In this document: positions 22,310-58,591 of the stretch, piece after piece
Layout: each line of letters starts with the position of its first letter
How positions within the stretch are numbered: the first letter of the stretch is position 1
NCBI GenBank assembly: GCA_964187785.1
Contig: OZ076409.1
Span: 38,380,001-38,444,000, forward strand
Direction of reading: 5' to 3'
Length of the DNA stretch: 64,000 bases
Origin: Amphiscolops sp. MND2022
Taxonomy: Eukaryota
Program-made: the position numbers and the translations under genes
Notes under the pieces: model-generated
The model's database searches: none
Told to the model about the DNA's origin: nothing
The model's input: the letters and a program-made list of their open reading frames with translations, nothing else

Positions 22310-23900
22310 GGTTGGCACGCCGTTTGAGTATCAAAAGGAGCAAAAGCCTTCCAAAATGTCAAGGAATCTGTTTTGAAAAAAATCTCAATCTCATAGTACC
22401 GGAAAAAACCACAGGAAGTAAATTCGGCGCCGTTTGAGTCTCAAAAGGAGCAAAAGCCTTCCAAAATGTCAAGGAATCTGTTTTGAAAAAATCTCAATCT
22501 CATAGTTCCGGAAAAAACCAGAGAAAGTAAATTCGGGGCTTCGGCGCGTTTTTTATACACTAGAAAGGAAAACAAGCCGGGAACGGCCCAAGTGGGCGCC
22601 CCGCTCGGGGTCAAAAAGAGCAAAGTGTTTGAAATATTCAACTATTGAAACTTTTCGATTATTCAACAGTGCCAAAAATACCCGAAGAGGTACCCTTGAG
22701 ACTCGGAAAACGCTTTTTCTGAACTGAAAACGTCAGAAAAACGTATATAACGAAAAACATCATTTTTTAAAAATTTCAAACAAGGTCTCATAGCGCCTAA
22801 AAACCCAGGAGATACTTCTTTTAAATATGCAAAGAGACACTATAGTTAAATTTATGTCACATTTACTGAGACAAAAATTACCCAACGAAATACCCAAAAG
22901 ACTCGAAAACCGGTTTTTTTTCTGACTGGAAACATCAGACAACCCAATTCAATTAATTTTTTCTTCGTAAAAAAGTCTGAGAATGCCGAAAAAGAGCTTA
23001 AGCTCGCAATACGCTCTTTCAAAGACAGGAAATTGTCTAAAAAATAAAAGGGTACCTTTTGACCGACTCGTAATTTTTTCGAATAAGTCGCATAGTGCCG
23101 AAAAAACCGTAGGTTTCAAAATTTTTGGTTTGAATTTTTTTTCGCAATACATGACTCCGATAAATTGCATAGTGCCCAAAAATCTCAGGAGCCCGCTACG
23201 CTCGCAAAACGCTGTTTATGCTAAAGATTGAAGGAAGGCAACTTGTTTGTTTCAAAAAAATCCAGAAATGTCGCACAGTACCAAAGAATCCCAATGAGGG
23301 GATGCCCGTTTGGTGTTTTTCCAATTTTTGCAAGCATAAATGAAGACTTTTTGAAAAAAAAGTCTCACAAAGCCGAGAAACGTAAAAGATGGGACCCTTC
23401 GGGTTTTTTATTATCCAGTTGGTTGCGGAAAATTAAAATAACCTAAAAGGGGACCCTTTGACGACAAAAAATTTCGGGGAAAAAGTCTCATAATGCCAAA
23501 AAACAGTAAGACCAAACCTTATGTGTTGTCTAGTAAAGAAAAAAGCTTCAGAACTATGATACCCAAAAGTGGCACCCTTTGGAAGCATGTGAGACAGCTT
23601 CCTAGTGAAGTAGGAAGGCAGAGAGTCACCGTGAGAGTCGGGAAGTTTTTGATTCACAGAAACCGCTGACTAAATAAAGTCACTGTAATAGTCGGACAAT
23701 TTGTTTGCCAAAAAGCGCTGACTAGAAACATCAAAAAAGTCAAAGTGAGAACTTTTTCGAGAATAGAAACTTTTTTCCTAAAGAGCTGCTGAGTGCAAGA
23801 AAAAAACAAAAGGGAACTTTTTAGGATTCAAAAAAACATATTGAAAAAACAAGGTGGAACTTTTCGGGAAAGTGAATTTTCCGGAGAAAAGTTACAGGCT
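22310..23900 (-). repeat. Cluster of HINE-like family copies including a ~110-bp tandem duplication (~22318-22536)
   Basis: 'aaacaagccgggaacggcccaagtgggcgcc' at ~22570. Many 'aaaagtctca..gccga' and 'gggacccttt' subunits. Terminal 'cgctgactaaa/ag' at ~23665 and ~23717. Confidence 0.6.
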
Positions 23901-24726: not shown

Positions 24727-27700
24727 TTAATATGCGCTGTTACAATATACTTGAACATAATCATGGCTCGCATGGCCTGGGTGATACCTAATCTGTTGTC
24801 CACGTACAAAAACTCTCGCGGGAAAAAGAGTGGAATTTTCTCGCCAAGGCGATGGTGAGCAGCTTACCGCTGTTCGATTGTAATTTTTCAACAAAGCGAT
24901 AACTTTCGGAATTTGCTTATCTGCCGCAAAATTTGCAGATAGCATCTTTTCATTTAGCGCGCGAGTCGACGGGCTCTGATTCATTCTCAGCTTCGAGCTG
25001 ATTACACTGTTCACTGTAAACCACTCGTTCACTAGCATTTTTGCCGTCACTGTTGCCCCTTCCATTTTACTGGGCTGCCTGTATAAGTAATCAGCCATGC
25101 CTAAAGATCTCCCGGCTACATGAATTACCTTCAACTCAAATGAGAACAGTCGATCTACGCATCTAGTTAATTGGCTAGAAAATGTTTTATTTCATCTATT
25201 CCATTTTAGGAGAGACATAAAAGATTTATGATCAGACACTATCAATTGTACTCCATACACGTCGTTTTTAAAACGTTCAAAGGCCCACACTAGTGCTAAA
25301 GGTTCTAATTCATTTATAGAATACTTTGTTTCGAAGTCCGTTAAAAATCTTGACGCAAAGCTGATTGGTCTCCATACACCATCGTTTTGACTTTGTTGAA
25401 AACACGGTCCCTTTTTGCTAGCGTCGCAAATGATTCTTGCATCTTCGTTCCATTTAAAATGTGACAATTTGTTTGATTTTTTTGTTGATTTTAATAAATG
25501 CTTTTCAATGTTCATCCCCCATATCTATTCAGCATCTGATTTCAAGATCGTTCTAAAGGGGTAATTAATAACAGCTAAGTTTAGACTAAACCGATTCAAA
25601 AGGTTGACGGCTCCAAGGAATGAGCGCAATTGTTCTAAGTTCGACGGGCTCAATCTTTCACTTATTCCCTTACCCTTTGCATCTACTGGGGAAGTACCCG
25701 TTTTGATTAATTTGTAATCTAGCTATTCTATACTGTTATAAGCTATCACGCATTTAGGTGCTTTCTATTGCATATTTGCCTCATCCAAGTCCTTCATGAC
25801 TTCTCTCACCTTGTTTAAAAGGTCAGCCTTGGTTCCTGTTGTTACAATTAAAATGTCGTTTGTATACACAAATACACTATTTATATTTACAAGCGTGGGG
25901 TCCATCAATTTCACTAATTCAGTAGGCTTTACTGTTAGGCCATAATATCCTGTTATGAAACGATACGTCCTGGTAGATTTTCCTCCAACTATTTAAAACT
26001 TACAGTGTTTCTTGGTTGTCTTATGTAAAGGTTGTCTCATGTCCATATGCACTGGCGAATACCAAGGCTCCCCTTTTTTGTCTAGTTTTCAGCAATCAGA
26101 TGTATTATATTCTGCAAGTTCGGCATTTGGTTTTTGTTTTTGGATATTGATTCGTTTAGTGCTCTCGCGTTTAACGCTATTTTAATAGACTTGTCTTTTT
26201 TAACTGTTATATTGGTTGGTTGGATAAATACATCATCTTGAATTTTGTTTTTTTGTTCAAAATGGCCTTTTTTTACCAGTTTTTCAATATCTTTATCAAC
26301 TTGGTCTCGTAACTGAATTGGTACTTTACAGCCTTTTTGGTTGCGAAAATTTCTGCATTTTCTTTCAAATCAATTTTGCTTTCGTAACTTCTCACTCGCC
26401 TGTTTACATTATTTACCGTCTAGTCACAATTCACAAATGCGCCAGTTTGTTCATACTCACCACTTTCTATTGCCTTCTTAATTCGATAACGAAGAGCAAT
26501 TAACCAATCGCGTCCCACTATCGACTTTCCGGAATTTGGAACCACAAGCAATCTAGCCTTTGATACATTCACCCCCGTTACTTTTAATCGAACGAATTGA
26601 TGCCCTAACAATTTCAACGGTCGTTTGGTATAATCTACGTACTGTTCGATTTCGATCATTTGGCTAACAACTACTACCTTCCGTTCTCCAATGATTTGTT
26701 GAAGGTCTTTTTTGTGAATATCAATACGGGTGATCGGGTGTCATTGATGGCTTTAAATTGCTTTCCACACATTAATCCCTCCATGTAGAACGACTTCTGA
26801 CCCTTTCCATCAATGTGCACCACTAATTGCTCTTCATCGTCATCTGGTTCTTCTTCAGAACCTGTGGGGAAACGTTTTATTGCAGCATTTCTCCATTAGC
26901 CCCACTAATTCACAAAATTTACACTTTTAATTGTTTGCCTCACAGTTCTTCATGTGCTCCATTGTGAAGTTCAACTCCTTGCATCTGAAGCACTCCCTCC
27001 GGTTAGTCTTCTCCACTGCAAATACGGTTTTGGTTTCCACAGTCGACTTTAATGACTCGGCGTTTTGCACTTCAAAAGACTTTTGTCGCTTCACGCCCTC
27101 CTCAAAAACTTTTGCATGTTCCAGGGCTTGCTCAGGTTCCCTAGGTTCGGTGCAAAGCTTCTCTTGAACTTTTTTTATTGAACATGTGAACATTAAGCAT
27201 GTCCAATACCAAAAGCGTCGTAGTTTCTCCAAAATCACATGTAGCTGCTAAGACGTTCAACGCGTGCCGGAATTGGTACAGCGTCTCTCCACGTTGTTGC
27301 ATTCTCGAAAAAGTGATGTCTATCCAGTGTCCCTTTTCTTTTTTTTTCAAGAGTCATTCTGTGCACATCTGGATTAGCTCACTCACTTTCAATGCCCACA
27401 TTATTGTATGAGAAAGTTTGTCCCAAAACGTCTTTCTGACAGCTTCATCAAGGGATAAGAACATTGCGCTTACCACCTTTTTGTTGGCAAGATCTTCGTT
27501 TAAATCCCCCATCAATGATCGCACCCTGGGTGGCTGCTCTGTCACTTCTCTGGTCATCTCAGTGATAGAAATCGAACATTTTGCCATTATGGCAACTTGG
27601 AATAAGGGAAGCAACTTCTCTCATTCCATAGATGGTGTGGCATTCGCATCATGCCTGAAGACAGGCAATCCCACAAGATGGCATAAGGAAGTTGACACAG

Positions 27701-28929: not shown

Positions 28930-29175
28930 TGTTTCAGTTCCAAGTCAATGATAGCTTGATTTTTGGAAGTCGAAACGTGTGAACAAAAAACTTTCTAGTT
29001 TTCATTGCCGAAATTTGCTAGCAGTTAATCAACCGTCATTAATGTTATCAAACAAGTTGTGATTTCTGCAATTCTTGACCAAAGAACTCGTTGTTTTTAT
29101 TCTGCCGTTCCGAAATTAATCTCTTTGAAGAATAATATTTCTTTTCAATACGAATATATCAAACGAGGCGAAACA
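28930..29175 (+). repeat. BEL/Pao 5' LTR
   Basis: TGTTTC...GAAACA. No difference from the 3' LTR found by eye. Confidence 0.95.
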
Positions 29176-29178
29176 ACG

Positions 29179-29188
29179 TGGCGCCCAA
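29179..29188 (+). promoter_or_regulatory. Primer-binding site (tRNA-Lys-like)
   Basis: TGGCGCCCAA 3 nt after the 5' LTR matches the start of known tRNA-Lys PBS sequences. Confidence 0.7.
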
Positions 29189-29440
29189 ATTGTGCAACAG
29201 CCCACCCCATGAACCCGAGACGAACAACTTCGCAACAGAGATTTAGAAAATAGAAAAAACTTTTCGAAACTCAAGAAAAAGAAAAACTTTTAAACATTTG
29301 GACCTTTAAACTTTTTGTAATTCTTACTGTCTTTTTGAATTAATTTGATGTTGTCACTCGTGCAGTGCGCCTGCTTGAAAAACAAATAATACCAAATTTC
29401 GGCAAAGAACCCCTTCAAAAAAAAATTGTCCCTCCAGGTA

Positions 29441-30100
29441 ATGGTTTTTATTCTTGGCGCGAGTAATATCGACCGCACGCTAAGGAATCTCGACGTTAAC
29501 ACTAGACGTCGTCTCCGTCTTGACGTACTAGGCGTTCCGAGTTTATCGTTCAACGGAAACAACAGCAAACCGGAGACAACAGTTCAATATCAAATAAACA
29601 ACCTCCCAGTAAGTCGTCGCGAGGACATTGTCATTTGGCACGACGTTATAAATAACTCCCTTAGTGCCCACAAAAGTAACGGCAATCGCCCATTAACTGT
29701 CCAACAGTTACTGAACGAGATCATTCTCATTCGCCACCGTATCGTTGCAATAGTCTACGTGCAACGTGACGGAACTCCTTCTGTCTTCCGCCGCCTGATA
29801 GCTGAAACTGGCCTGCTAGTCTTGCATATAATTGATGACATTTATTCTACACAGCAACGCAAGCGAGGACTAGACTTGAATTTGTATCAATTGGTACATC
29901 CAGGTTTTTCTGTTGAGTGGAAAACTGTATCACTTGTTCGCTGGTATTCATATAATCTTCGTCGATTGATTGCACGTCCTCAGCGACCAAGCAACAAAAC
30001 TCGCAAATCATTGAAGAACAAAGTGGCCATTGCTGAAAATAGAAAAAATCGCCAAGCATCGAAACTGCTGGAAAAGAAGCTGAAAGGAAACCGAGCCTGA
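29441..30100 (+). CDS. Accessory ORF0 of the BEL element, 219 aa, putative SGNH/GDSL-hydrolase-like fold with basic C-terminal tail
   Basis: Uninterrupted ORF between PBS and gag. Motif order VFILGAS / VPSLS / DIVIWHDVINNS / YQLVHP parallels SGNH blocks I, II, III and V. K/R-rich tail. The fold assignment is inference. Confidence 0.65.
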   Translation: MVFILGASNIDRTLRNLDVNTRRRLRLDVLGVPSLSFNGNNSKPETTVQYQINNLPVSRREDIVIWHDVINNSLSAHKSNGNRPLTVQQLLNEIILIRHRIVAIVYVQRDGTPSVFRRLIAETGLLVLHIIDDIYSTQQRKRGLDLNLYQLVHPGFSVEWKTVSLVRWYSYNLRRLIARPQRPSNKTRKSLKNKVAIAENRKNRQASKLLEKKLKGNRA

Positions 30101-30220
30101 ATCGAAAAAATTCTCGTATTAAATCGTAACGCACCGTTCGGTCCGTAAGCTACCGTGTTCGCGTCCTCTGCCCCTAGCAAACATTCTATTGCCTAAAACA
30201 TAATCAACAGTTGCGGTCGC

Positions 30221-30469
30221 AGGTTGCTACTCTATCAGTGAACTCGAGGACTTCAACCCGAGTAGCTTGGGTTGTTGGTTGATTTGAGATCTCTGATTTT
30301 GCAGTAGCACCTTCTTCCTGTTCGTTTCGGTCTTTTTTTGTTTTCATCGAGTTTTTGTTTCTGGGCACGAGTTGCCGCTCTAATCGGCGAACTCGAGGAC
30401 TTCGACCCGAGTAGCTTGGGTCGTGGGATGATTTGAGTTGCCACCTAGAGCGGCCACTCGTCTCCCAGA
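30221..30469 (+). other. Two diverged copies of a structured RNA element (stem-loop with kink-turn consensus) between ORF0 and gag
   Basis: Core gaactcgaggacttc(a/g)acccgagtagcttgggt(t/c)gt(t/g)g(gt/ga)tgatttgag at ~30240 and ~30389, with compensatory changes and copy-specific outer stems. Confidence 0.65.
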
Positions 30470-30601
30470 CACGTTAGTTTCCGTTTTTTGAAACCGCATC
30501 GTTCTGGCCTGGGAGCACCTCTTCGAGGATTTTTGCAACCCTTCAAAGATTTTATTGATTCACCAGAGACTGAATTAAAATTTCAACTTTTCCCTTTGAC
30601 T

Positions 30602-33600
30602 ATGGAAGACGACACTTTCACTCGAAAAGCCCCCGCTCTTTACCAGTTACGCAAAAAAGCTGAAGCAGAACTTCTTGAAGTTCATGGCGCAGTAAAAGAA
30701 TCAGTCAGTTCTCAAGATCGTCGTGTACGTGTAAATAAACTAGTTCAAAAAAGTATTGAACGTATGCAATCACTATTTGAGCGGAATGACGCATTGCTCA
30801 AACTCTCCAAAAACTCCAAGCATCCGGAAAGACTAGCAACAGAGTTGGAAAACTATTTGAGTACTGTCACTTCAAAACATGATGATGTTCTGAAAGTTAC
30901 CAGTAGGTACCTTGAAGCTTTGACCGATGATGGAAAACCTGCAATTGAAGTTGAGCAAGCAGAAAAGATATCTCAAAAAACGCACTCCGTCCAATCAAAA
31001 ATCGCGAAATCTCAAAAATCATCGGAAAAAGACTTTTCACGTAAGTCTGCTTCGGTGTCCATGACTTCAAGTGAGAAAAAGCGACAGCTGCTTGTGGCTC
31101 GTTTAAGACGTGAGGAAATTGAAAAGCAGAACGAGGCAGAGATGCGCCTAGCGACGCAAAGAAAACAGCAGGAATTAGAAGAGCTTGCCGAAAAGAACCG
31201 GCAACGTCTCGTTTTGGCCAAAATTGATGAAGTCGAACTTCTGGATGATGAATTGGCTGTAGAGGAAGAAAATATTCTCCCTGATGTCTTCTCCGCACAT
31301 GCCAGCCCTGCACACGAGGAACGCACCGAGTCATGGGTAAACGCCGTACCCACCGGTGGCTTGACAGGTTTCGCAACTTTTGACCCGCAAAATGTTTTCT
31401 GTTCCCCATTAGATCAAGTTACTGATCATCATCGAACATCTGTTTCTGTTCAGGGGCCATCGTGTATTAGCTTTGACCGAAATTTCCTATGCGCATCCAC
31501 TGCGTTCAATCCATCACGTGTTTTCGAACCATCGGCTCAACCCAACGCTGTTGCCGATGCACCAATAGCTGTGCCAACCGACGATGAGCGTTTTTTGAAA
31601 AATACAACGCTAGCTAACTTGAAACCATCACCAACGTCGAACCCACCGACTGGTCGCATTACTGTTAAGGATCCACCTGGTGGCAGTAAGGAGCCAGTTA
31701 CTATCAAAGACCTTGCAGAATTGTTCACTTTGAGTCGCAAAGATGCACTGCCCGAATGGAACCTTTCTGAGTTCGACGGCGACCCTTTGAAATGGCCTGA
31801 ATGGTTTGGTCAATTCAATAGCACTGTAGATTCCGCTGCAATCTCTGACGATGCAAAGATGAATTACTTGAAGACATATGTCAAAGGCGAGGCTGCTTCA
31901 GAGATAGCTCATCTAGCGTATTGCGGGACTATGTATAAGGAAGCACTCGAAGCTCTGCAACGAAAATTCGGTCAACCCCACAGCATTGTAGCTGCCCACC
32001 TTGAGAGACTAAATAACTATCCTCAGGTCAAAATGCACAACTCTGAAGCAATCATTGCTTTCACTGGAATTGTTGCAAGTTTGGTGGGGGTGTTCCGATC
32101 GCTTAAGTACGACTCTGACTTGAAAAGTACTACGCTCTTGAATCAAGTAGTTTCAAAGTTACCACCAAACATGAAAGAAGGTTGGTCACTACATGTAGTT
32201 CGAAAGCGTTTTGTCCGTCCTTCTCTGATCGACTTCAAGGATTGGCTACAAGAAAAAGGTGACGCTCACTACCGAATGCGCACACTTCATCCTTCAACTC
32301 AACCAAAACTGGACTCCAAGAGTCTGGTAGTGAAATCAAAAACCTTCTCGCGTTCGTTTCAAGCCAGTTCGACCAATCCAGTGCGCAAAAATGCGACCAG
32401 TCTCCCAAAATGCGTTGCTTGCAACGAAACGCATTTTCTTTGGCGTTGTACAAAGTTCAAGCAAAAAACGCCCACTGAACGCGCAAAACTAGTGGCAGAA
32501 AGTAAACTTTGTTTCTCGTGCTTACAGCCCGACCATTCCTTTCGAAATTGTAGCAGGTCTCTGAAGTGTTCGAAAGAAGGATGCAACAGCTCACACAATA
32601 CACTGTTACACGGTGCGGACAGAGTTTTCCCGATTCGGGAAACAACGCAGGAAACACAGAAGTCGAAAACGCACCTGAAACAGTCTGTCACAGAAAATGC
32701 ATCCTTTTCAGCGTCCGCAACTGGCGTCAAAGGTCTTTTACAAATTTCACGACTTTCCGTATCCGCACAAGAACGAAGTGTAAACACATTAGCACTCTGT
32801 GATTCTGCCTGTAGTCACTCCTGGATATCAGCTGACCTTTCGAAAAAGCTGGGTTTGACCGGCAAACCCCTACGTTTGACCGTCAGTGGCATCAACACAC
32901 AAGAAATTATCGACACGACACAAGTAAAAATTCGAATTGCGTCATGCGATAAAGAAAATGATTTCGCCTTAGAAATTGCGCCCTTTGTAAAGAACGACAT
33001 CAACGTGGGAACAGATACTATTGATGTGAATCAGTTACAGCGGGAGTATCCTCATCTTGCCCCTCTTTCATTGCAAAACTACACGTATTCCGACGTCCAC
33101 GTTATCCTAGGTCAAGATGCTTTTGCTGCAATCCGCCCAATCGAATACTTCGATTGTGAACAACCGAATACTCCAGTAGCCGTCCGACTTCCGATTGGTT
33201 GGGTACTAAGTGGCCCTATGAAATCATCTACTTGTCTGCTATCGTTGTGTTTCAAAGTAAACAACAGCGACTTCGATTTGTCCGAGCAAATACGGTCTTG
33301 GTATGAAATGGACTCATTCGCTGCTTACAAACAAGTTGACCTGCGTTCACAATCCGACCAACGCGCGTTGGAAATGTTAAAGTCGTCTACTTTTTTCGAC
33401 GGTGAGCGGTATTCTGTAGGCATGCTTTGGGCGGAAAACAATTTGACCCTACCAGACAATTATTTTTCGTCCCTAGCACAACTGAAATCGCTCGAGAAAC
33501 GCTTCGAGAGGGATAGCGATTTGCAAAAGCGTTACTCTGAAACAATCAAAGTTGATCTCGAAAAAGGTTATATTGTCCAAGTTCCAGCTTACAGAAAAAA

Positions 33601-36600
33601 TAGTCGAACGTCAAAAGAGTGGTATCTACCACACCACCCAGTATTGAACCCCAACAAACCGGGTAAAGTCCGGAGGGTACTAAATGGAGCGGCTAAGTTT
33701 CAGGGACAGTCACTGAACAATAACTTGCTCATTGGACCAGACCTTCTACAAAATCTGGTGTACGTTCTGTTACGTTTTCGAGAACATCAATTTGCTGTTT
33801 CAGCAGACATTGAGGGTATGTTTTTACAAGTTGGCGTCCCAGCAGAAGATCAACCCTCCCTTCGTTTTTTGTGACGGAAGGATCCACGTGATGAGGTGTC
33901 AATCTTCCAATATACTCGTCACATCTTTGGGGCAAAGGATTCCCCAACTTGTGCAAATTTTGCTCTTCAACTGACTGGCCGTGATAATCAGGCACAATTC
34001 CCTGAAGTAGCAAATGCCATTGAGGAAAAATTCTATATGGACGACTATCTGGACTCTGCTGAATCTGTAGATGTGATTCTTGAACGATGTGAAAGTTTAG
34101 TCCGAGTTCTCAAAAAAGGAGGGTTCAAACTAACCAAGTTTGTCAGCAACGTGCCCACTATCGGCTTGAAACTAAATGATGATGAAAAAGGAGAAGAAGA
34201 CCCCACCGATTCTTGTCAACTTCTATTGCAAACCGCTGCACCATCTTCCTCTCATGTGCTTGGTCTCAAATGGGATCATAACGCAGATAGTCTCGTTGTC
34301 AGTAGAGGAGTGTGCAAGGCGTATGACAACCACGTTACACAACGCGTAGTGCTGTCTGGTGTTTCGTCTGTTTTCGACCCACTTGGTCTTGTCGCTCCGT
34401 TTACAGTCAAAGCAAGAATACTGCTGAAGGAAATTTGGTGCTCCCAAGGTCAAAACTGGGACAACACCCTTCCGCTTAATTTCCAACGTGCCTTCAAAGA
34501 ATGGTCCTTGGAACTGCCCCAGTTATCCAAAATAACCATCAAACGAAGTTACTTCAGAAACATGACTGAAATCCCAGAACTTCATATTTTTGGTGATGCG
34601 TCTCAAGATGCCTTTAGCGCAGTGGCATTTCTCCGTTGTAGAGTAGTCCAACCCGGTGGAAACCACGAAACCGAATTGTCGTTCGTGTTTGGGAAAGCAC
34701 GTGTAGCCCCAATGAAAGCACTTTCAATACCAAAACTTGAGCTTCAAGCGGCTTTATTGGCTGCCAGACTGAAAGAACTGATTTGTAAAGCACTAACTTT
34801 TGAAATCTCTTCTATTTTCCTTTGGACAGATAGTACTACAGTTTTACAGTGGTTACAATCAACTCAACGCCAACCAGCGTTCATTGCAAACCGTGTTGAA
34901 ACCAGGTGAAATCTTAGATAACACTACCTCCGATCAGTGGAACTACGTTCCTACGTCTAACAATCCCGCTGACTCAGGAACCCGTGGGCTCTCGGCTCAT
35001 GATTTGAATTCAAGCCACTGGATTTGCGGCCCTCCTTTCCTGAAAACGGATCAATGGCCTTTCCAACCCAGTCCCCCTCCAGCTGGTTGTTTCCTTCCAA
35101 GTAAAATTATGGAGGAGGCAACAACGAAAGATGCGCTGAACGTGGAAAGCATGACTTCCACTTGTGAAACAAGTTTAATTGACTGGTCAAAATTCAGTTC
35201 CTTCACAAAAGTACGCCGCGTCATGGCCTATGTGCTGCGATTACTTACAAAACATCACCACTTCCGCTCTGGGAAGCAAATTGTCGATCCTGACGAGTTA
35301 GCCAGAGCCGAAGAGAAACTGTTCTATCTGTCACAGGTCGAAACCTTCCCATCAGAACACAAATTGCTAAAACTGAAACAAAACTGTACTGCTTCTAGTC
35401 GAATTGCAACCCTGACTCCGTTTTGTGGTCCTAATTTGGTAATACGGTCCCGAGGTCGACTTCGCCGTCTCATGGAGTACGATTTCCAGTCAAAGCACCC
35501 AATAATTTTAGATTCCCGCCACCCGTTAGTACGTCTACTTCTCGAGTTCTTACATCGGGAAAATTTTCATCAGGGCATAGATTACCTGCGAGCTATTGTT
35601 CAGTCGCGTTTCCATGTGTTGCGATTGCGAACTACACTACGTAGTATTCAATTATCCTGTGTTGTTTGTCGAAAACGCAGAGTTAAACCTTCGCCTCCTA
35701 TCATGGCTGATCTTCCGAACGAACGACTAGGAGTTGATAGCCCCCCTTTCAGCTACACCGGCGTAGACTACTTCGGTCCCTTCTTTGTCAACATTCGCAG
35801 GACAACCGAAAAGCGATGGGGCTTCCTGTTCACCTGCCTGACTACCAGAGCTATTCATTTAGAAGTTGTTGCATCCATGGATACAAGCTCTTGCGTCATG
35901 GCTATCGAACGCTTCATAGCTCGCCGGGGCATGCCCAAAACGTTATGGTCTGACAATGGCACTAATTTTGTTGGAGCTGAAAAGGAGTTAACCCAATGTT
36001 TCAAAAACTGGAGTCACGACTCCATCAGCTCAACTCTCGCTGAAAAGGGGATACGGTGGAAGTTTAACCCACCAGGCACGCCACATCAAGGTGGCAGTTG
36101 GGAAAGACTTGTCCGAAGTTGTAAACAGGTCTTATATGTGATCTTGAATAACCGTCGATTAACTGAAGAGGTCTTGACTACTGCGCTGTGTCTCGTAGAA
36201 CAGGCCCTAAATGCTCGTCCGCTCACTTCGGTAAGTAGCGAAATCACCGACATGGAAGCGTTGACTCCAAACCATTTTTTGCTCGGTCGTAACAGCGTTA
36301 CACTACCTTCGTCCTTACTGAACACAAATGTAGACTTCAGAAAACGCTACTTGAAAGCTCAAGCCTACGCGAACGCTATTTGGGAACGTTGGCTGCGCGA
36401 TTACGCTCCACAACTGAACAAGCGTTCAAAATGGCATCGAGAATCTCACCAATGTTTGAAACCCGGAGACCTAGTCTGGATCCTGGACCCCACTAGTCCT
36501 CGGGGCTATTATCCGATGGCAAGAGTTACACAATTGCAATATGGTGATGACGGTGTAGCTCGCTCCGCTGAGCTCAAAACTCCTACCGGCACGATCGTTC

Positions 36601-36677
36601 GTCCAGTTATTAAATTAATAGCAGTTCTCGACACACCGATTTCCGGGGCGGAGGATGTTTCAGTTCCAAGTCAATGA
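30602..36677 (+). pseudogene. BEL/Pao gag-pol polyprotein interrupted by one premature stop (33872-33874) and one frameshift (~34900)
   Basis: Gag LPEWNLSEFDGDPLKW. Knuckles CVACNETHFLWRC, CFSCLQPDHSFRNC, CSKEGCNSSHNTLLH. Protease ALCDSACSHSWI. RT YLPHHPV and FYMDD. RNase H LHIFGDAS. Integrase GVDYFGP, SDNGTNF, GGSWERLV. The stop codon lies inside the 3' LTR. Confidence 0.93.
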
Positions 36678-36901
36678 TAGCTTGATTTTTGGAAGTCGAA
36701 ACGTGTGAACAAAAAACTTTCTAGTTTTCATTGCCGAAATTTGCTAGCAGTTAATCAACCGTCATTAATGTTATCAAACAAGTTGTGATTTCTGCAATTC
36801 TTGACCAAAGAACTCGTTGTTTTTATTCTGCCGTTCCGAAATTAATCTCTTTGAAGAATAATATTTCTTTTCAATACGAATATATCAAACGAGGCGAAAC
36901 A
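36656..36901 (+). repeat. BEL/Pao 3' LTR
   Basis: Same 246-bp sequence as 28930-29175, preceded by the PPT and followed by TSD ATAAT. Confidence 0.95.
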
Positions 36902-38628: not shown

Positions 38629-39356
38629 AAACAAGCCGGGACCGGCCCAAGTCGGCGCCATATCCAAGGCTCAAAAATAGCAAAAGGACTTCCAAAAGTC
38701 AATTTACCGTACTCGAAATTCGAAAAGGCAAAAAAAATGGACCGAGTGGCGCGCCGGGGCCCGCTAGCGCGAGCCCCTGGCGCGCTGAAAGGGGGACACT
38801 TCCGAAATTGTCAGCATTTATGTCGCTGTTGAAGGGGGACCCTTTGGAGAAAAAACAAATTTTCGAAAAAAGTCTCACAATGACGAAAAACTGAAAGGGG
38901 GACCCTTTGGGATTTTTAAACACCCAATCTGTTGTAAAATATCAAAGAAATTGAAGGGGGGACCCTTTGGAGAGAAAATAATTTTAGGAAAAAAGTCTCA
39001 CAGTGCCGAAAAAACTGAAAGGGGGGACCCTTTGGGATTTTCCAACATCCATTCTGTCGCAAAACAGCAGAAAAATTGAAGAAGGGACCCTTTGTGGAAA
39101 AATTATTTTCCGAACAAAAAGTCTCGCAGTGCCGGAAAAAATTGAAAAGGGGGACCCTTTGGTCTCGCCCGGTATGGTATGTTACGCGGGAAAACAGGAA
39201 AAACATTTTTGGTTCAGTTCGCTAGACCAAATAGTGCAATTTGGTGCAATATTTTTTTGTATAATTTTTAAGAACTATTTTGGTCAGTTCGTGTGGATTG
39301 AAAAAAAAAAGAAAAGCCACTATAATAGTCGCGTTTCACTTCATGAAGCGCCGATT
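38629..39356 (-). mobile_element. Well-preserved HINE-like element with central tandem subunits, nested in the Tc1 relic
   Basis: aaacaagccgggaccggcccaAGTCGGCGCC at one end. 'gggggaccctttgg...aaaaagtctcacagtgccgaaaaa' subunits repeated. Other end AGTCGCGTTTCACttcaTGAAGCGCCGA. Confidence 0.7.
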
Positions 39357-39752
39357 TGAAAAACGAAGCTTTTAAATTAGTTTGAAAAGGAGAAATATGC
39401 AACCATATCTTTTTCATAAAATACTAAGTATGATTTTTCGAAATTTTCTTGAACCAGGGTTGATGCTTAAAATTGAATGGTTTCAATCATTGATTATAAT
39501 TTGATGATAATCAACTTGATTAGAACTATTTGAACAATGGTGTGATTGAATTCAGCCGAAAGGAGCCAATTTTTCGAGGTGGATGACTCCATTCAACAGA
39601 TTCTGTCTTGAGCTTCGAGAATTAAACAATTGAGACTCATTTTAAAGGGCTCCTAAAGTGTCAATTTGAAGAATAAAAACCAACTCGGAATTGAAAAACT
39701 CAAAAACTTCGCTATCTGGTTAAACTTTTTGAAAATTAATGAAAAACTGGTT

Positions 39753-40218
39753 GCGGGACAAAACAGCCGATTTTAAAACGAGACCAAACAGCTGATTTTC
39801 AAAACGAGACAAAACAGCCGATTTTCAAAGCGAGACAAAACAGCAGATTCTCAAAACGGAACAAAATGAGTGATGGTACAACCAATATGCATGGAACTTG
39901 ATATACTTGAAGAGGTTCATATTTGTTGTATGGGTCGGTCGCTTCGCTCCCTTCGCCAAGTAGCAACATTGAGGCATGGCCATATGGCACGTCGCTCGGC
40001 TTCGCTTCGCTCCTGCATATAGGGCACTAGGGGTATTTGAACATAGCTGACTACATAAAAATAATTATATTGACTGCTAATCTTACGCATTGACAAAATC
40101 GTCGATTTCTGTATTTACTCATCGGCGATTTTGTATTGTTTTAAAATCGGTTGTTTTGTCCTATTTTGAAAATTGGCTGTTTTGTCCCGCCTAAAATCGG
40201 CTGTTTTGTCCCGCTCCC
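39753..40218. mobile_element. Foldback-type MITE whose arms are arrays of a ~25-bp unit
   Basis: Left 4-5 copies of 'gcg(g/a)gacaaaacagccgatttt'. Right 3 inverted copies 'aaaatcggctgttttgtcccgc'. Confidence 0.75.
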
Positions 40219-41009
40219 TGAAAAATTGGTTTCTGCATTCCCGTTTTTATTCTTGATTATCCATTCTTAACATCTTTCATCAATCAACTTTCATCAATTT
40301 AATAAGTATTCCGACTGAATACGCTGTTTTCTATTGACTTTTCTCACATGCAGGAACCAGTAGCTTTTCTCACATTTTGATCTAGAAAATAAAATTGAGT
40401 CAAATTTTGGACATGAATTGAAAACGGTGTTTCTAGAGACAGCGAAGAAAACTTTGGCAATACCTGAAAAATGAGAAAACGCTATTCAGGAGTTGAAAGA
40501 ACAAGCCGCGAACGGCAAAAGCGCAGTACTTCAAAACGTCAAAAATCGTTCCTGAGAAATCATCTCACAGTGCCGAAAAAACCAAAGGGGGACCATTGGC
40601 GTTTAAAAATGCGTTCTGAAAATAATTTTAAAAAACAAAGAGATAAATTGGTTCGAAAAACTGAAAGTCGCACAGTGACGAAAGGTTTGTTTACAAATAT
40701 CAAAGCTTTGAGAGCTCAGAAATTTTTGTGCATTCCGTTTTTTGGTTCACCTAGTACAATAGCGCAACACGCACGAGTGACTCAAACGAATCAATGCAAC
40801 TTTAAGCATAATTTAAACCGAAACTCTGAAAATTAGCATCAAAAAGATTCTTAAACAAACTATTTAGAATTGCGAGAAGACTAATCTTCAAGTCGAGACA
40901 ATTGCGCATTGAAGAGCCCTCTCTACCTTATTAAATCATTGCAAGTAATGGTGCAGAACTCTTGATTAGCAAATATCGATTTAAAAACATCCAATGAATG
41001 CACCAATTT

Positions 41010-42586
41010 TGTTATGACTCCTGTTAGGGTCGTTGTTCTGTACATTTTTGATCATTTTTGTTGCTTTTTGAAGGACATTCTTCTTTTCTAGCTTCTCTTG
41101 ATGAAAAGATTTTCGGATTTATCAATTTTGAATTGAAGTTTGCAGAGTAATTGTTTTAACAAAACAAAGTAGAATTTGATACAAGACAGCAGATTGAATC
41201 AGAAATTGAATGAATAAGTTTACAGGTACAAGCTATATATACCCTCCTAGCATCATCTGTTCATACTCGCGTACTTTAATTTCCATCGAGATATTAGTCA
41301 CTTCCTGTAATTTTGCGGCAAAACTTTGATCTTCGTCAGCATTTCGTCAATTTTAAAGACACAGCAATTCTAATCTAGTATTAGTCATCAACCATGATCA
41401 TATCATTTCATTCCGGCGTCCTTTTGTTTCCTCCCAAGCAGGAAGTAGATATTACTTCAGTCTGCCAAACCGGAAATATTTCCCCGTTTTACTGCTTTGG
41501 TTCGTAAGAAACCGACGCGGAGATGACGCTGACGTGAACAACTAATACCTGATTTTGAATTTCCACTTGAAGAAAATTATGACTAATTATCTTGATTTAG
41601 ACAATTTGGTGATGCTAAGAGAGTGACTGATTTACATGAGGCTAAACAATTAAATCTTTCAACAATTGATAATTATTTATCTGATTAAAGTTAAGAGCAA
41701 CACCTTTGAGCAACAATAGAAGACGACGTGACAACGTCAAACAGTCAATGAAATTATTAAATTAGGTAATCAAATCATACATTTAAAAAACCTGCATAGA
41801 CTGCACTTTATTAACACAAATTGAAAATGAACTGTTACTCTCCAATTTAAATAGTGTTAAAACACTCTTATTTTTAGTTAGTCAGAAAAATCCTGGCCTA
41901 AATACCATATTCCGTTCGAATTCAATCTTAGTCGACGCAATACTGACGTAGAAATGTGTTTTCTCAACTCTAGTATCTTAGTTGACGTAGCGTTGACGTA
42001 GATTCAAAATTTGGCTTGGTTACTTGAATTGCGACGTAGTGTTGACGTTGATTCATATTCTAGCTTCGATTAGTTTTACCGTATTAAAATAAGGCTTCTT
42101 TTAAATTCAATACTGATTAAAACGCCTAATTTCATAACTTTGGGACGTAGTGTGGACGTAACTTTTTATTCGACTTAGTCCGCCATTATAGTGGACGTAA
42201 ATTTGGTATTTTGAATGGATTGAAACAGCTATTTCGATGGAAAATACTCAATTACGTCTAATTTCATAAACTTGTCAACGTCATGTTGACGCGTTTTCTT
42301 GGCAGAAATGAGATTTTGACTAGTTTGACGTGATGCTGACGAATATTTAGAATTAGACTTTAGCTAGTTAGCTACGAGCGCTGTGACGTCACGTTGGCGG
42401 AAAATTGGAATGATTTCTAGTAAGCTATTAGTATAGGCGGATAATCGGAATGATTTTCTGGTATGCGTAGACGAGGCTGTGACGTAGCGTAGTCGCGACG
42501 CAAATTCAATCGTATTGGCGAAGCGGTGACGTAAATTAGTTTTAGTTTGCTTTTAATTCAATCCAGTCCGGGCGCGGACTGTGACA
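41010..42586 (-). repeat. 3' LTR (1577 bp)
   Basis: Near-identical to 44391-46019; about 4 substitutions seen by eye. Confidence 0.9.
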
Positions 42587-43509
42587 GGGCCACTCTCATA
42601 AGACGAATGGTTCTCGGGGGCTTGATAAAATGAAAGATGATGTTAAGGAAGTTTTGTACCGTCAATTAATTGGTTATCAAATTGTTTTTGTTTTCTTTAG
42701 TCCTACATTTTGACGTAGTTTCGTTCTTTTTGCGACAAGTAATTCCAATGATATGTCTCGGTTGTATTTTGCAGGAAAATGATTAAAATTCTACTGTCAT
42801 CACAACGCATGTCCGGAAATGTGTGAAATTATCTCGGAATGTTTTTAGGTTCTGAAATCATTCATAATTTAGATTTTGATGGTTTTAACTTGTCACAGTT
42901 TATTTCAGTTTAATAAGATAGTCTAACTGTTTTCATAATGCATCCATGATCACGTCCAAACTGCGCCTCTTGGCAACCACAATCCAGGCCGGGCGCGGAC
43001 TGTGACAGGGCCACTCTCATGGGACGAAGATATCTCGTGGGGTTGTCGAAACTGAAGAGAGGATTGTTTTGGTTGTACGCTTTCCCAGAGGAATGCGACA
43101 TTTCCGGTACCACTCTGTAGTTCGGTATAGCACTTTTTGGGAGGTGGTAGAAGCTGTCTTTTAATTCCTTTGTAGTCCCAGGTGTTGACGTTTTGCCAAC
43201 GTCACGTTTTTATTGGCCACGAATTAAATTAATTCGTTTGACCAAAGTTGTCAACGTTTTGCTGACGTCAAGTTCGTTAGCATAGCTAACTTTTGAAGTT
43301 GTCACCGTTTTGATGACGTCATTATAGATTATAGGATTAATTCTTAACCCTGATAACCTTTGTGTCGACGTTATGCCGACGTCAATTTCGTTGGTAATTA
43401 GCCAACTTTAGGTTTTGTCACCGTTTTGATGACGTCAATTTTGTTAACGATAAGCCAACTTCATTTTTTTGCGGTCACTGTTGACGTCATAATGACGTCG
43501 TATCAGTAT

Positions 43510-43696
43510 TGGGCTGTTATAACCCTGGTCATTTGCGACGTCAATCTTGCGTCGTCTTTGTATATGGGTTGTTATAACCCGGTCATTTGCGACGTCAATC
43601 CTGCGTCGTCTTTGTATATGGGCTGTTATAACCCGGTCATTTGCGACGTCAATCTTGCGTCGTCTTTGTATATGGGCTGTTATAACCCGGTCATTT
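43510..43696. repeat. 54-bp minisatellite, ~3.4 copies
   Basis: Unit ggtcatttgcgacgtcaatcttgcgtcgtctttgtatatgggctgttataaccc. Confidence 0.9.
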
Positions 43697-44390
43697 TCAG
43701 ATCAATTTGGTCTTAAAAGATCATGATCTGCAAAGTGATAATTAGACTCATTTTTGTTCTCTGAGGGAGATGTGCGTATCAGTGACGCCGACGCGCTGGT
43801 TATTCAACAACCCTTAGGTTTGTAATATTCCCCGTTCCATTAAGCTTTTTTGAATCATACGAAACTGCAGATAGGCCTTTTCTGCTTTTGTATGTTCATA
43901 GCTTAGATTTTCTGACTAGTCGATTCGGGAATGTGTGCTTCAGTGACTACGTCTTTGTCATCTTTCGAACGCACATCTCGGCCTCAGGAAGAGTCTAGTT
44001 TTTCTTTTTTCTTTTTTTATACTTACTGATGTGAGCTAATTCATCCGACTCTGGGCAAAGGTAACGCCCCAGGGGTATGTTGCCAGCTTTTGGAACCTCG
44101 TGTTGTGGTAAACGATGTCTTCGGCAGGTGTTGAACTGCTTCTGACGATGTACTGACGGTGACGGGTTGAGTGTTGTTGGTGTAGTCGTCGAAGTTTAAC
44201 TCGTTTATCATCAGTCGGTCAACAAGTAGTCTCCATTTGCCGTTTGGGTTGCGTTGCTCAATTAGTGTATGTTCGTCTTCGTTTCTGGGGCGAAGAGTTT
44301 CCGCAATGTGCAGGGACGCTCTTTGGACGGTAGTTTAAGCTGAGGTTTTCTTGGGTACATTTGTTGAAAGGTCCAAAACTCCTGTCACCA

Positions 44391-46019
44391 TGTTATGACT
44401 CCTGTTTGGGTCGTTGTTCTGTACATTTTTGATCATTTTTGTTGCTTTTTGAAGGACATTCTTCTTTTCTAGCTTCTCTTGATGAAAAGATTTTCGGATT
44501 TATCAATTTTGAATTGAAGTTTGCAGAGTAATTGTTTTAACAAAACAAAGTAGAATTTGATACAAGACAGCAGATTGAATCAGAAATTGAATGAATAAGT
44601 TTACAGGTACAAGCTATATATACCCTCCTAGCATCATCTGTTCATACTCGCGTACTTTAATTTCCATCGAGATATTAGTCACTTCCTGTAATTTTGCGGC
44701 AAAACTTTGATCTTCGTCAGCATTTCGTCAATTTTAAAGACACGGCAATTCTAATCTAGTATTAGTCATCAACCATGATCATATCATTTCATTCCGGCGT
44801 CCTTTTGTTTCCTCCCAAGCAGGAAGTAGATATTACTTCAGTCTGCCAAACCGGAAATATTTCCCCGTTTTACTGCTTTGGTTCGTAAGAAACCGACGCG
44901 GAGATGACGCTGACGTGAACAACTAATACCTGATTTTGAATTTCCACTTGAAGAAAATTATGACTAATTATCTTGATTTAGACAATTTGGTGATGCTAAG
45001 AGAGTGACTGATTTACATGAGGCTAAACAATTAAATCTTTCAACAATTGATAATTATTTATCTGATTAAAGTTAAGAGCAACACCTTTGAGCAACAATAG
45101 AAGACGACGTGACAACGTCAAACAGTCAATGAAATTATTAAATTAGGTAATCAAATCATACATTTAAAAAGCCTGCATAGACTGCACTTTATTAACACAA
45201 ATTGAAAATGAACTGTTACTCTCCAATTTAAATAGTGTTAAAACACTCTTATTTTTAGTTAGTCAGAAAAATCCTGGCCTAAATACCATATTCCGTTCGA
45301 ATTCAATCTTAGTCGACGCAATACTGACGTAGAAATGTGTTTTCTCAACTCTAGTATCTTAGTTGACGTAGCGTTGACGTAGATTCAAAATTTGGCTTGG
45401 TTACTTGAATTGCGACGTAGTGTTGACGTTGATTCATATTCTAGCTTCGATTAGTTTTACCGTATTAAAATAAGGCTTCTTTTAAATTCAATACTGATTA
45501 AAACGCCTAATTTCATAACTTTGGGACGTAGTGTGGACGTAACTTTTTATTCGACTTAGTCCGCCATTATAGTGGACGTAAATTTGGTATTTTGAATGGA
45601 TTGAAACAGCTATTTCGATGGAAAATACTCAATTACGTCTAATTTCATAAACTTGTCAACGTCATGTTGACGCGTTTTCTTGGCAGAATTTAAGCTTCAT
45701 AAACTTGTCAACGTCATGTTGACGAGTTTTCTTGGCAGAAATGAGATTTTGACTAGTTTGACGTGATGCTGACGAGTATTTAGAATTAGACTTTAGCTAG
45801 TTAGCTACGAGCGCTGTGACGTCACGTTGGCGGAAAATTGGAATGATTTCTAGTAAGCTATTAGTATAGGCGGATAATCGGAATGATTTTCTGGTATGCG
45901 TAGACGAGGCTGTGACGTAGCGTAGTCGCGACGCAAATTCAATCGTATTGGCGAAGCGGTGACGTAAATTAGTTTTAGTTTGCTTTTAATTCAATCCAGT
46001 CCGGGCGCGGACTGTGACA
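44391..46019 (-). repeat. 5' LTR (1629 bp, with a 52-bp internal tandem duplication)
   Basis: Extra copy of ttcataaacttgtcaacgtcatgttgacg.gttttcttggcagaa at ~45644-45740 that is absent from the other LTR. Confidence 0.9.
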
Positions 46020-57818: not shown

Positions 57819-58591
57819 CCCAGTGTTTCAAGCCATGGTTTCGTTGCCAAGATCCATGGCAAGTTCCTTGCTAGCCTTGCCGAGATCTTGCCATGATCTT
57901 GGCAAGGATACCATCGCCATGCAAGATCGTGCAAAGGCTAACCATGATCTTGGCAAGGATGCCAAGACTAACCATGTTCTTGACAAGGGTTCCATAGTAG
58001 CAAATCCGTTTTTTTTGGTAACTCTTATTTTCTAATTCTATTCATTTTTAATGCATTACTTTCTATTGCATTCTCAAACTTCAGTAATTTCAACACATTA
58101 CCTCAAGGTGAGGTATTAGCAAGATTAGCAAATCATAGCTAGAAAAGATAGTTTTCACACCGATATACCAAACCCACAAGTTGCAATAACTTGATTTTGA
58201 GTTTGTTTTGTATGATAATTTAAGATTGTAGTAACAATGCCGTGCTCTCAAGTACTAAAACTAGGTCAATGAGTGCATATTATTGAGAAGTTTTGGATAC
58301 GTTTCAGTGTTAAAAAAACTTTTCAATGAATAAAGGTTAAGTCCGAAGTTATCACAACGGCTTATTCAGAAATCGGAGACGACAAGAAATTTTTGTGAAA
58401 AGAATAAATTATACGATTAAAAGCAGATCACACGTCTTACCATGGTTATCTTGCGATGATCTTGTCATGATCTTGACAAGCGTTCCATGTATTATGATTT
58501 GCCATGATCTCGACAAGGGTACCATGGTTAACCATGATTCAGCGAGATTAAACATGATCATAGCAAGGGTTCCATGGCTTCGAACACTAGG
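57819..58591. mobile_element. Non-autonomous TIR element with CC(C/T)AGTG ends, TA flanks and CCATGATCTTG subterminal repeats
   Basis: ta-cccagtgtttcaagccatgg versus reverse complement of the right end ta-cctagtgttcgaagccatgg. Arrays of 'ccatgatcttg(g/a)caag' near both ends. Confidence 0.7.

What the first reader, a model, noticed from the sequence alone, without database searches (positions are those of the whole stretch)
30221..30469. Duplicated, covarying RNA stem-loop with a kink-turn consensus in the ORF0-gag spacer
Seen: two ~65-nt diverged repeats. The apical hairpin c(a/g)acccgag-tag-cttgggt(t/c)g shows a compensatory A-U to G-C swap. Below it, both copies have 5' strand ctcgaG-GA-c and 3' strand g-(gtt/gat)-GA-Tttgag. 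This gives a 3-nt bulge followed by tandem G.A/A.G pairs and a U.G pair. The outer stems differ in sequence yet still pair: atcag/ctgat and tgctact/agtagca in copy 1; ggc-aactc/gagttgcc, gccgctcta/tagagcggc, acgagt/actcgt and tctggg/cccaga in copy 2. Known: this is the standard k-turn pattern bound by L7Ae/15.5K/L30-family proteins. Inference: a selected cis-acting RNA module, such as a packaging/dimerisation signal, an IRES-like element for gag-pol downstream of ORF0, or a binding site for ORF0 or a host k-turn protein.
Basis: partly seen in the sequence, partly recalled or inferred. Interest (0 to 1): 0.8.

Follow-up and report, generated by a model that had tools for sequence, protein, structure and literature searches.

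The report
Portable esterase-plus-hairpin cassette in retrotransposons
Two stable predicted RNA hairpins lie between an extra esterase-fold gene and the main genes of a young jumping gene; conserved hairpins sit at the same spot in many unrelated jumping genes that carry this extra gene, so they are likely docking sites for its protein, while the kink-turn pattern is found in this one family only.

Summary
Confirmed: two 49-nt repeats (45 of 49 identical) cap long hairpins (z -7.3) between ORF0 and gag of a young BEL/Pao element. Both match the standard k-turn pattern. The k-turn is not general: 0 of 28 other ORF0 spacers have one, about one chance hit is expected in all spacers scanned, and its helix start (G:C, then U-U) is weak.

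The wider result: ORF0 is an SGNH-fold protein with a basic tail. One to four covarying UUNNNU-loop hairpins follow it in BEL elements, LINE-type elements and metagenome contigs (1632 motif matches in this genome against 39 in the control). Copy 1 looks like one of these with a 16-nt insert (post hoc test; the covariance model misses it). ORF0 and spacer are AUG-depleted, with weak ORF0 and strong downstream start contexts, the signature of leaky scanning.

Most likely the hairpins bind ORF0's arginine-rich tail and tune translation against RNP assembly (inferred, 0.45). A working 15.5K-type k-turn: about 0.35. The scan earlier noted an esterase ORF without internal AUGs on other DNA of this genome; its note does not mention hairpins.

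The parts
28930..29175 (+). 5' LTR (TG...CA, 246 nt), preceded by the 5-bp target duplication ATAAT
   Evidence: identical to 36656-36901
29441..30100 (+). ORF0, 219 aa, SGNH/GDSL fold (Ser8, His153 kept) with a basic C-terminal helix; one internal AUG (out of frame) and no internal Met
30221..30311 (+). Hairpin 1, -38.3 kcal/mol, z -5.18
30240..30288 (+). Repeat core 1. K-turn pattern: 3n G30248, 2n G30249, 1n A30250, -1n C30251; -1b G30277, bulge 30278-30280, 1b G30281, 2b A30282, 3b U30283. 30248-30255 and 30272-30282 match the two halves of the type-A hairpin of other ORF0 elements around a 16-nt insert (30256-30271)
30312..30362 (+). Pyrimidine-rich linker between the hairpins
   Evidence: sequence; similar linkers in relatives
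30363..30469 (+). Hairpin 2, -60.8 kcal/mol, z -7.26
30389..30437 (+). Repeat core 2. K-turn pattern: 2n G30398, 1n A30399, -1n C30400; -1b G30426, bulge 30427-30429, 1b G30430, 2b A30431. Holds the spacer's only AUG (30428), followed by a stop after two codons
30602..36677 (+). BEL/Pao gag-pol (DUF1759, protease, Peptidase_A17, integrase, DUF5641), broken into three ORFs in this copy
36656..36901 (+). 3' LTR, followed by ATAAT

Best explanation
The two repeats are predicted sense-strand RNA hairpins in the ORF0-gag spacer of a BEL/Pao retrotransposon and are likely a remodelled form of a hairpin array that travels with the SGNH-fold ORF0 gene; they likely act as binding sites for ORF0's basic tail on a leader that ribosomes are inferred to cross by leaky scanning. 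Steps. (1) Shown by computation: stable hairpins, a covarying hairpin family at the same place in other ORF0 elements, and its tight link to ORF0. (2) Strongly inferred: one mRNA yields ORF0 and gag-pol (or LINE ORF1) by leaky scanning. (3) Inferred: ORF0 protein binds the hairpins through its arginine/lysine-rich tail, like lambda N on boxB; this slows scanning to gag and marks the RNA for RNP or particle assembly. (4) Speculative: in this family the bend is a k-turn that a host 15.5K-type protein could also bind, and that m6A at GGACU could switch off.
For: Hairpin family in 27 copies from 11 other elements: 12 of 15 pairs change on both sides, score 0.650 against 0.238 shuffled; one G-U pair and one C-G pair never vary. 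The model hits 23 of 40 ORF0 loci in the spacer, 11 of them training loci, including LINE-type L096, L098 and L105 (for L098). It hits 20 of 20 gag-picked BEL loci with 3-4 copies each, and 2 of 9 metagenome loci (L169 E 1e-10, starting 2 nt after the ORF0 stop). 1632 genome matches against 39 control; 29 of the first 30 lie downstream of ORF0 on the same strand. Copy 1 scores 24.9 bits on a split type-A profile, above 300 of 300 shuffles and 125 of 125 window tiles. Scanning: internal Met 1 of 3426 codons against 38 of 2958; out-of-frame AUG 37 against a mean of 59.3 (none of 500 shuffles as low); purine at -3 in 1 of 17 ORF0 starts against 16 of 17 downstream starts. Tail sequence and hairpin type go together by eye..SKRRRR/NKRRRR with type B, RPSKRARK with type A, altered tails with altered hairpins in L166/L167 and in the window. 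PMC3905857 (passages) speculates that esterase-bearing ORF1 proteins bind specific RNA structures through arginine-rich motifs.
Against: No binding or expression data. The covariance model does not find the window's own hairpins, copy 2 scores only 5.9 bits, inside the shuffle range, and the split-profile test was devised after seeing the match. Neighbouring sequences travel together whether or not they interact, so linkage and tail/hairpin matching do not prove binding; the deep ORF0 tree is unresolved. ORF0 keeps catalytic Ser and His (147 and 155 of 169), so it may be an enzyme. The isolated ZfL2-1 esterase domain did not bind oligo(A) RNA (PMC3905857). The window's family is the one exception with a strong ORF0 start context. 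A -60.8 kcal/mol hairpin should hinder scanning (recalled from Kozak's work). L168 and L171 show ORF0 without a recognisable UUNNNU hairpin array of the modelled kind.
Confidence: 0.45

Rival explanations
1. The working part in this family is a true k-turn bound by the host 15.5K (Snu13) protein, which represses scanning or affects splicing or export; m6A at A1n would switch it off. This can hold together with the best explanation.
For: Standard pattern in both copies; 9 of 300 shuffled spacers have such a site, 2 of 300 at -25 kcal/mol or better. GA/GA, 3b:3n and -1n are invariant in 8 variants; the middle bulge base takes U, A and G, which breaks the competing A-U pair but not the k-turn. 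3n=G favours folding (PMC8191799). -1n=C with GAC occurs in box C/D k-turns that fold on 15.5K binding (PMC5579392).
Against: 0 of 28 other spacers have it. Background is 4 sites in 34,951 nt, so about 1.2 are expected in the 10.5 kb of spacers scanned. -1b:-1n = G:C impairs ion-induced folding, and that pair is followed by U-U mismatches. Both GA steps are also present in type-A hairpins, out of k-turn register, so the letters may be inherited. Copy 1 prefers another register by 1.6 kcal/mol. The 8 variants are 91-100% identical relatives.
Confidence: 0.2
2. The hairpins act on the ribosome directly: as a shunt over which 40S subunits jump to the gag AUG, or as a reinitiation or internal-entry element.
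For: Always between the ORF0 stop and the next AUG; in LINE-type elements the 53-101 nt spacer is little more than the hairpin. Many of the remaining spacer AUGs lie inside hairpin arms (by eye). Shunting with leaky scanning is known in caulimovirids (PMC5902531).
Against: The conserved part is the loop and upper stem, not the base. Copy number of 1-4 suits a binding-site array. AUG depletion through ORF0 argues against internal entry. L094 has a second copy upstream of ORF0.
Confidence: 0.15
3. The hairpins are a Gag-binding packaging or dimerisation signal, unrelated to ORF0 protein.
For: Position upstream of gag; the family's gag loci keep ORF0 and spacer beside them (24 of 24 by comparing coordinates; one is rearranged).
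Against: The same hairpin type occurs in LINE-type elements that have no BEL Gag. Loops are not consistently self-complementary.
Confidence: 0.1
4. The spacer is part of an intron: gag-pol is made from a spliced RNA, and the hairpins mark the unspliced RNA for export, as the RRE or CTE do.
For: A donor-like CAG/GTAATG overlaps the ORF0 start and an acceptor-like site lies near 30566 (sequence). This family has a strong ORF0 start context.
Against: No such donor is common to other families. The context is changed in L022. No copy lacking ORF0 and spacer was seen. AUG depletion would be needless.
Confidence: 0.07
5. Neutral inverted duplications, or a DNA-level or small-RNA precursor feature.
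For: The copies of this family are very young, so their likeness to each other says little.
Against: Invariant G-U pairs and better + strand folding point to RNA; arms vary while loops are kept, the reverse of miRNA precursors; the motif recurs in metagenome contigs.
Confidence: 0.03

Closest known systems
Standard kink-turn, box C/D type with -1n = C (PMC8191799: abstract and introduction read; PMC5579392: passages)
   Same: 3-nt bulge ending in U, tandem G-A/A-G, non-Watson-Crick 3b:3n (U:G), GAC on the unbulged strand
   Different: In a retrotransposon mRNA leader; C helix is one G-C pair followed by U-U or U-G; not conserved beyond one family; no structure or binding data
Esterase-plus-ARM ORF1 proteins of CR1/L2/RTEX LINEs, e.g. 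ZfL2-1 (PMC3905857: passages)
   Same: SGNH esterase with an arginine-rich motif in a retrotransposon, upstream of pol; RNA-structure binding by the motif was speculated there
   Different: Here a stand-alone 200-aa ORF ahead of a normal gag or PHD-type ORF1, shared by LTR and non-LTR elements, motif at the C-terminus, no DxxH Asp, and followed by candidate target hairpins
GDSL/SGNH ORF3 of rotifer Vesta LTR retrotransposons (PMC5408684: passages)
   Same: Accessory SGNH ORF shared between unlike retroelements
   Different: ORF3 lies downstream of pol; 'hairpin' does not occur in that paper's main text
Leaky scanning and shunting in RTBV and badnaviruses (PMC5902531: passages)
   Same: Accessory ORFs upstream of the polyprotein, cleared of internal AUGs; structured leader also used for packaging
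   Different: Hairpins lie after the long ORF, not after a short uORF; animal retrotransposon
Lambda N/boxB, HIV Rev/RRE (recalled; lambda N is cited in PMC3905857)
   Same: Basic peptide and cognate stem-loop array encoded on the same element (inferred here)
   Different: No sequence or structural likeness tested; binding untested
SECIS element (recalled)
   Same: K-turn-type core downstream of a UGA-ended ORF
   Different: Opposite orientation (apical loop on the C helix), no AAR loop, no Rfam hit; ORF0 stops differ among families

Membership tests
Standard k-turn | 3-nt bulge followed by tandem G-A and A-G | tested here: met
   both copies
Standard k-turn | Flanking C and NC helices compatible with the fold | tested here: inconclusive
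   NC helix 98% paired; C helix begins with one G-C pair, then U-U or U-G; +1.6 and 0 kcal/mol
Standard k-turn | Sequence rules for ion-induced folding (3b:3n and -1b:-1n) | tested here: inconclusive
   3n=G favourable; -1b:-1n = G:C unfavourable (PMC8191799)
Standard k-turn | GA/GA kept across independent homologues | tested here: not met
   0 of 28 other spacers; kept only in 91-100% identical copies
Standard k-turn | Kinked geometry and L7Ae/15.5K binding | not testable with these tools
   needs gel shift, FRET or SHAPE
ORF0-linked UUNNNU hairpin family (defined here) | Position between ORF0 stop and next ORF, repeated, with variable paired outer stems | tested here: met
ORF0-linked UUNNNU hairpin family (defined here) | Match to the family covariance model | tested here: not met
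   best 2.2 bits on the + strand in the spacer; no hit in the whole-window search
ORF0-linked UUNNNU hairpin family (defined here) | Sequence likeness to type-A members when an insert is allowed | tested here: inconclusive
   copy 1 24.9 bits, 0 of 300 shuffles; copy 2 5.9 bits; test was post hoc
SGNH/GDSL hydrolase fold (ORF0) | Fold | tested here: met
   pLDDT 90.4; Z 10.7, rmsd 3.7-3.8, 154-155 residues, top 50 rows almost all SGNH; Foldseek best E 1.2e-3; no Pfam hit
SGNH/GDSL hydrolase fold (ORF0) | Ser, Gly, Asn, His blocks and DxxH acid | tested here: inconclusive
   Ser 147, Asn72 158, His 155 of 169; block II Gly 137 of 169 (Ser in the window); no Asp three before His
BEL/Pao LTR retrotransposon | DUF1759 gag, Peptidase_A17, integrase with DUF5641, TG...CA LTRs, 5-bp target duplication | tested here: met
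SECIS | Apical loop on the NC helix with AAR; Rfam match | tested here: not met
   orientation reversed; no Rfam hit

The most novel reading that the evidence does not exclude
ORF0 and its downstream hairpin array form a portable protein-RNA switch, an N/boxB- or Rev/RRE-like pair built on an esterase fold, that has moved between LTR and non-LTR retrotransposons, with tail and hairpin changing in step. In this lineage a 16-nt insert rewired the hairpin into an m6A-sensitive k-turn that brings in the host 15.5K protein.
Probability: 0.2. Interest if true: 0.85.

Novelty: new variant of a known kind. Interest (0 to 1): 0.62.

Why it matters
Why so many retrotransposons carry SGNH esterases is open. 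A 2013 structural paper speculated that their arginine-rich motifs bind specific RNA structures but had no target in the passages read. Here is a covarying candidate target, in more than a thousand genomic copies, tied to the gene across two retrotransposon classes, with natural tail/hairpin variants for swap tests. If the k-turn is real, it would also be a case of a k-turn arising inside a mobile element's mRNA by reuse of older hairpin bases. I found no report of this hairpin family or of a retrotransposon k-turn in the result listings of six searches; the library lacks most subscription papers and no supplements were read.

Tried and rejected
Rfam: nothing for the window region or five related loci. 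Pfam and PDB sequence searches for ORF0: nothing. Closer relatives for k-turn covariation: none between about 89% and 42% ORF0 identity in the genome. Proteins near it in the tree (P0014, P0029, P0009) had only 44-48% matches there and P0015 none at E 1e-45; each search scored only 150 candidates. No RNA holder listed. The family covariance model could not be run on the whole genome, so a short pattern was used. Stop-codon readthrough from ORF0 into gag: rejected; the spacer is 167 codons but the gag frame is open only 51 codons upstream of its AUG, and spacer lengths elsewhere are not multiples of three. miRNA precursor, SECIS and known ribozymes: rejected as above. Trees did not place the window's ORF0 or pol with type A or type B elements. 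One search used a mis-registered structure and was replaced. The output was cut: ORF0 hits were seen for 13 of the 20 loci.

Full report
Setting. The finding lies in a young BEL/Pao LTR retrotransposon at 28930-36901: identical LTRs, a 5-bp target duplication, and BEL-type Pfam domains. A 219-aa ORF0 (29441-30100) precedes gag-pol (from 30602; broken into three ORFs in this copy). A search with the spacer gave 27 matches in the 1.07-Gb animal genome, most 99-100% identical and three at 91-93%.

Observation. Confirmed. The repeat is 49 nt (30240-30288, 30389-30437), 45 of 49 identical. The region folds at -106.8 kcal/mol, z -7.30. Each hairpin folds better on the + strand. No Rfam family reaches its threshold.

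The k-turn, for. A scanner that demands the standard pattern and a fold within 3.5 kcal/mol of the minimum finds both copies. 9 of 300 shuffled spacers have such a site. In 8 variants the GA/GA, 3b:3n and -1n positions never change. The middle bulge base is U, A or G, which breaks the alternative pairing that RNAfold prefers in copy 1. By the rules in PMC8191799 (abstract and introduction) 3n=G helps folding. PMC5579392 (passages) shows that k-turns with -1n=C fold on 15.5K binding and are blocked by m6A; both copies carry GGACU at that place.

The k-turn, against. 0 of 28 spacers from other ORF0 elements have one. Background is 4 sites in 34,951 nt, so about 1.2 are expected in the 10.5 kb scanned (my arithmetic). 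Four random differences would spare the eight core positions with probability 0.43. The -1 pair is the unfavourable G:C and is followed by U-U mismatches; in the decayed copy L025 it is broken in the second repeat. No independent family with this form was found. I put a working k-turn at about 0.35, and at 0.2 as the main function.

What is general. ORF0 has 150 scored matches of 2606 candidates in the genome. I fetched 40 diverged loci picked by hand from that list. They include BEL elements and LINE-type elements with PHD, endonuclease and RT domains. Their spacers hold one to four long hairpins. In 27 hairpins from 11 elements, window excluded, 12 of 15 pairs change on both sides (score 0.650 against 0.238 shuffled, and at most 0.169 when slid); the loop is UUNNNU and one G-U pair is invariant. 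The rows are related and were picked by a motif, which inflates these figures. The model hits the spacers of 23 of the 40 loci, 11 of them training loci. The other 17 have no spacer hit; by eye they carry different hairpins, most with UU...U loops. It hits 20 of 20 BEL loci picked by gag alone, mostly close relatives of type-A training elements, and 2 of 9 metagenome loci. A 26-place pattern has 1632 matches against 39 for its reversed control. 29 of the first 30, from about 16 places on one contig and all type A, lie just downstream of ORF0.

Is the window's hairpin one of them? The model does not find it. But copy 1 matches the two halves of the type-A hairpin around a 16-nt insert: 24.9 bits, above all 300 shuffles and 125 window tiles. 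Copy 2 scores 5.9 and the type-B profile finds nothing. I devised this test after seeing the match. If the likeness is real, both GA steps were already present and the insert brought them into k-turn register; the differences in copy 2 then favour the new fold. This is likely, not shown.

ORF0. The model is confident (pLDDT 90.4) and matches SGNH/GDSL hydrolases (Z 10.7; Oskar OSK domain Z 8.6, rank 27). Ser8 and His153 are kept in 147 and 155 of 169 sequences, with no DxxH Asp. The family has 987 clusters at 50% identity. All members aligned end in a basic tail. Tail and hairpin type go together by eye, also in LINE-type L096, but kinship and linkage could explain this and the tree is poorly resolved.

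Translation. Over 21 elements, AUGs number 45 against 158.5 expected in ORF0, 22 against 56.4 in spacers, and 283 against 308 in the next ORF. Over 17 elements, one per family where possible: internal Met 1 of 3426 against 38 of 2958; out-of-frame AUG 37 against 59.3; purine at -3 in 1 of 17 ORF0 starts against 16 of 17 downstream starts. This is the pattern described for leaky scanning in RTBV and badnaviruses (PMC5902531, passages). I ran this test after reading an earlier scan note on a similar esterase ORF without internal AUGs (e1-9086399). The window's family is the one exception in start context.

Mechanism. The hairpins lie on the path from cap to gag AUG. The simplest use of a repeated, loop-conserved hairpin tied to a gene with a basic tail is binding of that protein. 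Binding would slow scanning and move the RNA towards RNP assembly, a function that LTR and non-LTR elements could share. PMC3905857 (passages) speculated such motif-to-structure binding for LINE esterases and found no oligo(A) binding by the esterase domain alone. Binding is untested; confidence 0.45. Rivals are a host 15.5K k-turn (0.2), shunt or reinitiation (0.15), Gag packaging (0.1), splicing or export (0.07) and neutral (0.03).

Novelty. SGNH ORFs in retrotransposons are known (PMC3905857; PMC5408684, passages). The hairpin family, its link to ORF0 across element classes and a retrotransposon k-turn did not appear in the listings; supplements were not read. Verdict: a real RNA element, a new variant of a known kind; the k-turn is possible but family-specific. 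Interest 0.62.

Noticed in passing
window 29436-29443 and 30550-30566: Donor-like CAG/GTAATG over the ORF0 start and an acceptor-like site 36 nt before the gag AUG; this family alone has a strong ORF0 start context.
   Followed up: partly
window 29209 and 29348: Two short upstream ORFs (14 and 13 codons, read by eye) between the primer-binding site and ORF0; the second ends about 50 nt before the ORF0 AUG.
   Followed up: no
L094, about 100 nt upstream of ORF0: A LINE-type element with a second copy of its hairpin upstream of ORF0.
   Followed up: no
L172 905-985: Metagenome locus: long hairpin with a symmetric tandem GA/GA loop and no bulge, ending just before the next AUG.
   Followed up: partly
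L166, L167: A distinct repeated hairpin variant after ORF0, with a changed basic tail, in metagenome contigs.
   Followed up: partly
ORF0 family: 987 clusters at 50% identity with E up to 0.001 and no Pfam model; nearly invariant WHDxxNN motif.
   Followed up: partly
window 24727-25515 (- strand): ORF fragments that read like pol of another, decayed LTR element (by eye).
   Followed up: no
window 41010-45995, 22570-23514, 38629-40591, 57884-58575: Long near-identical direct repeats about 3.4 kb apart and arrays of a short dispersed repeat.
   Followed up: no
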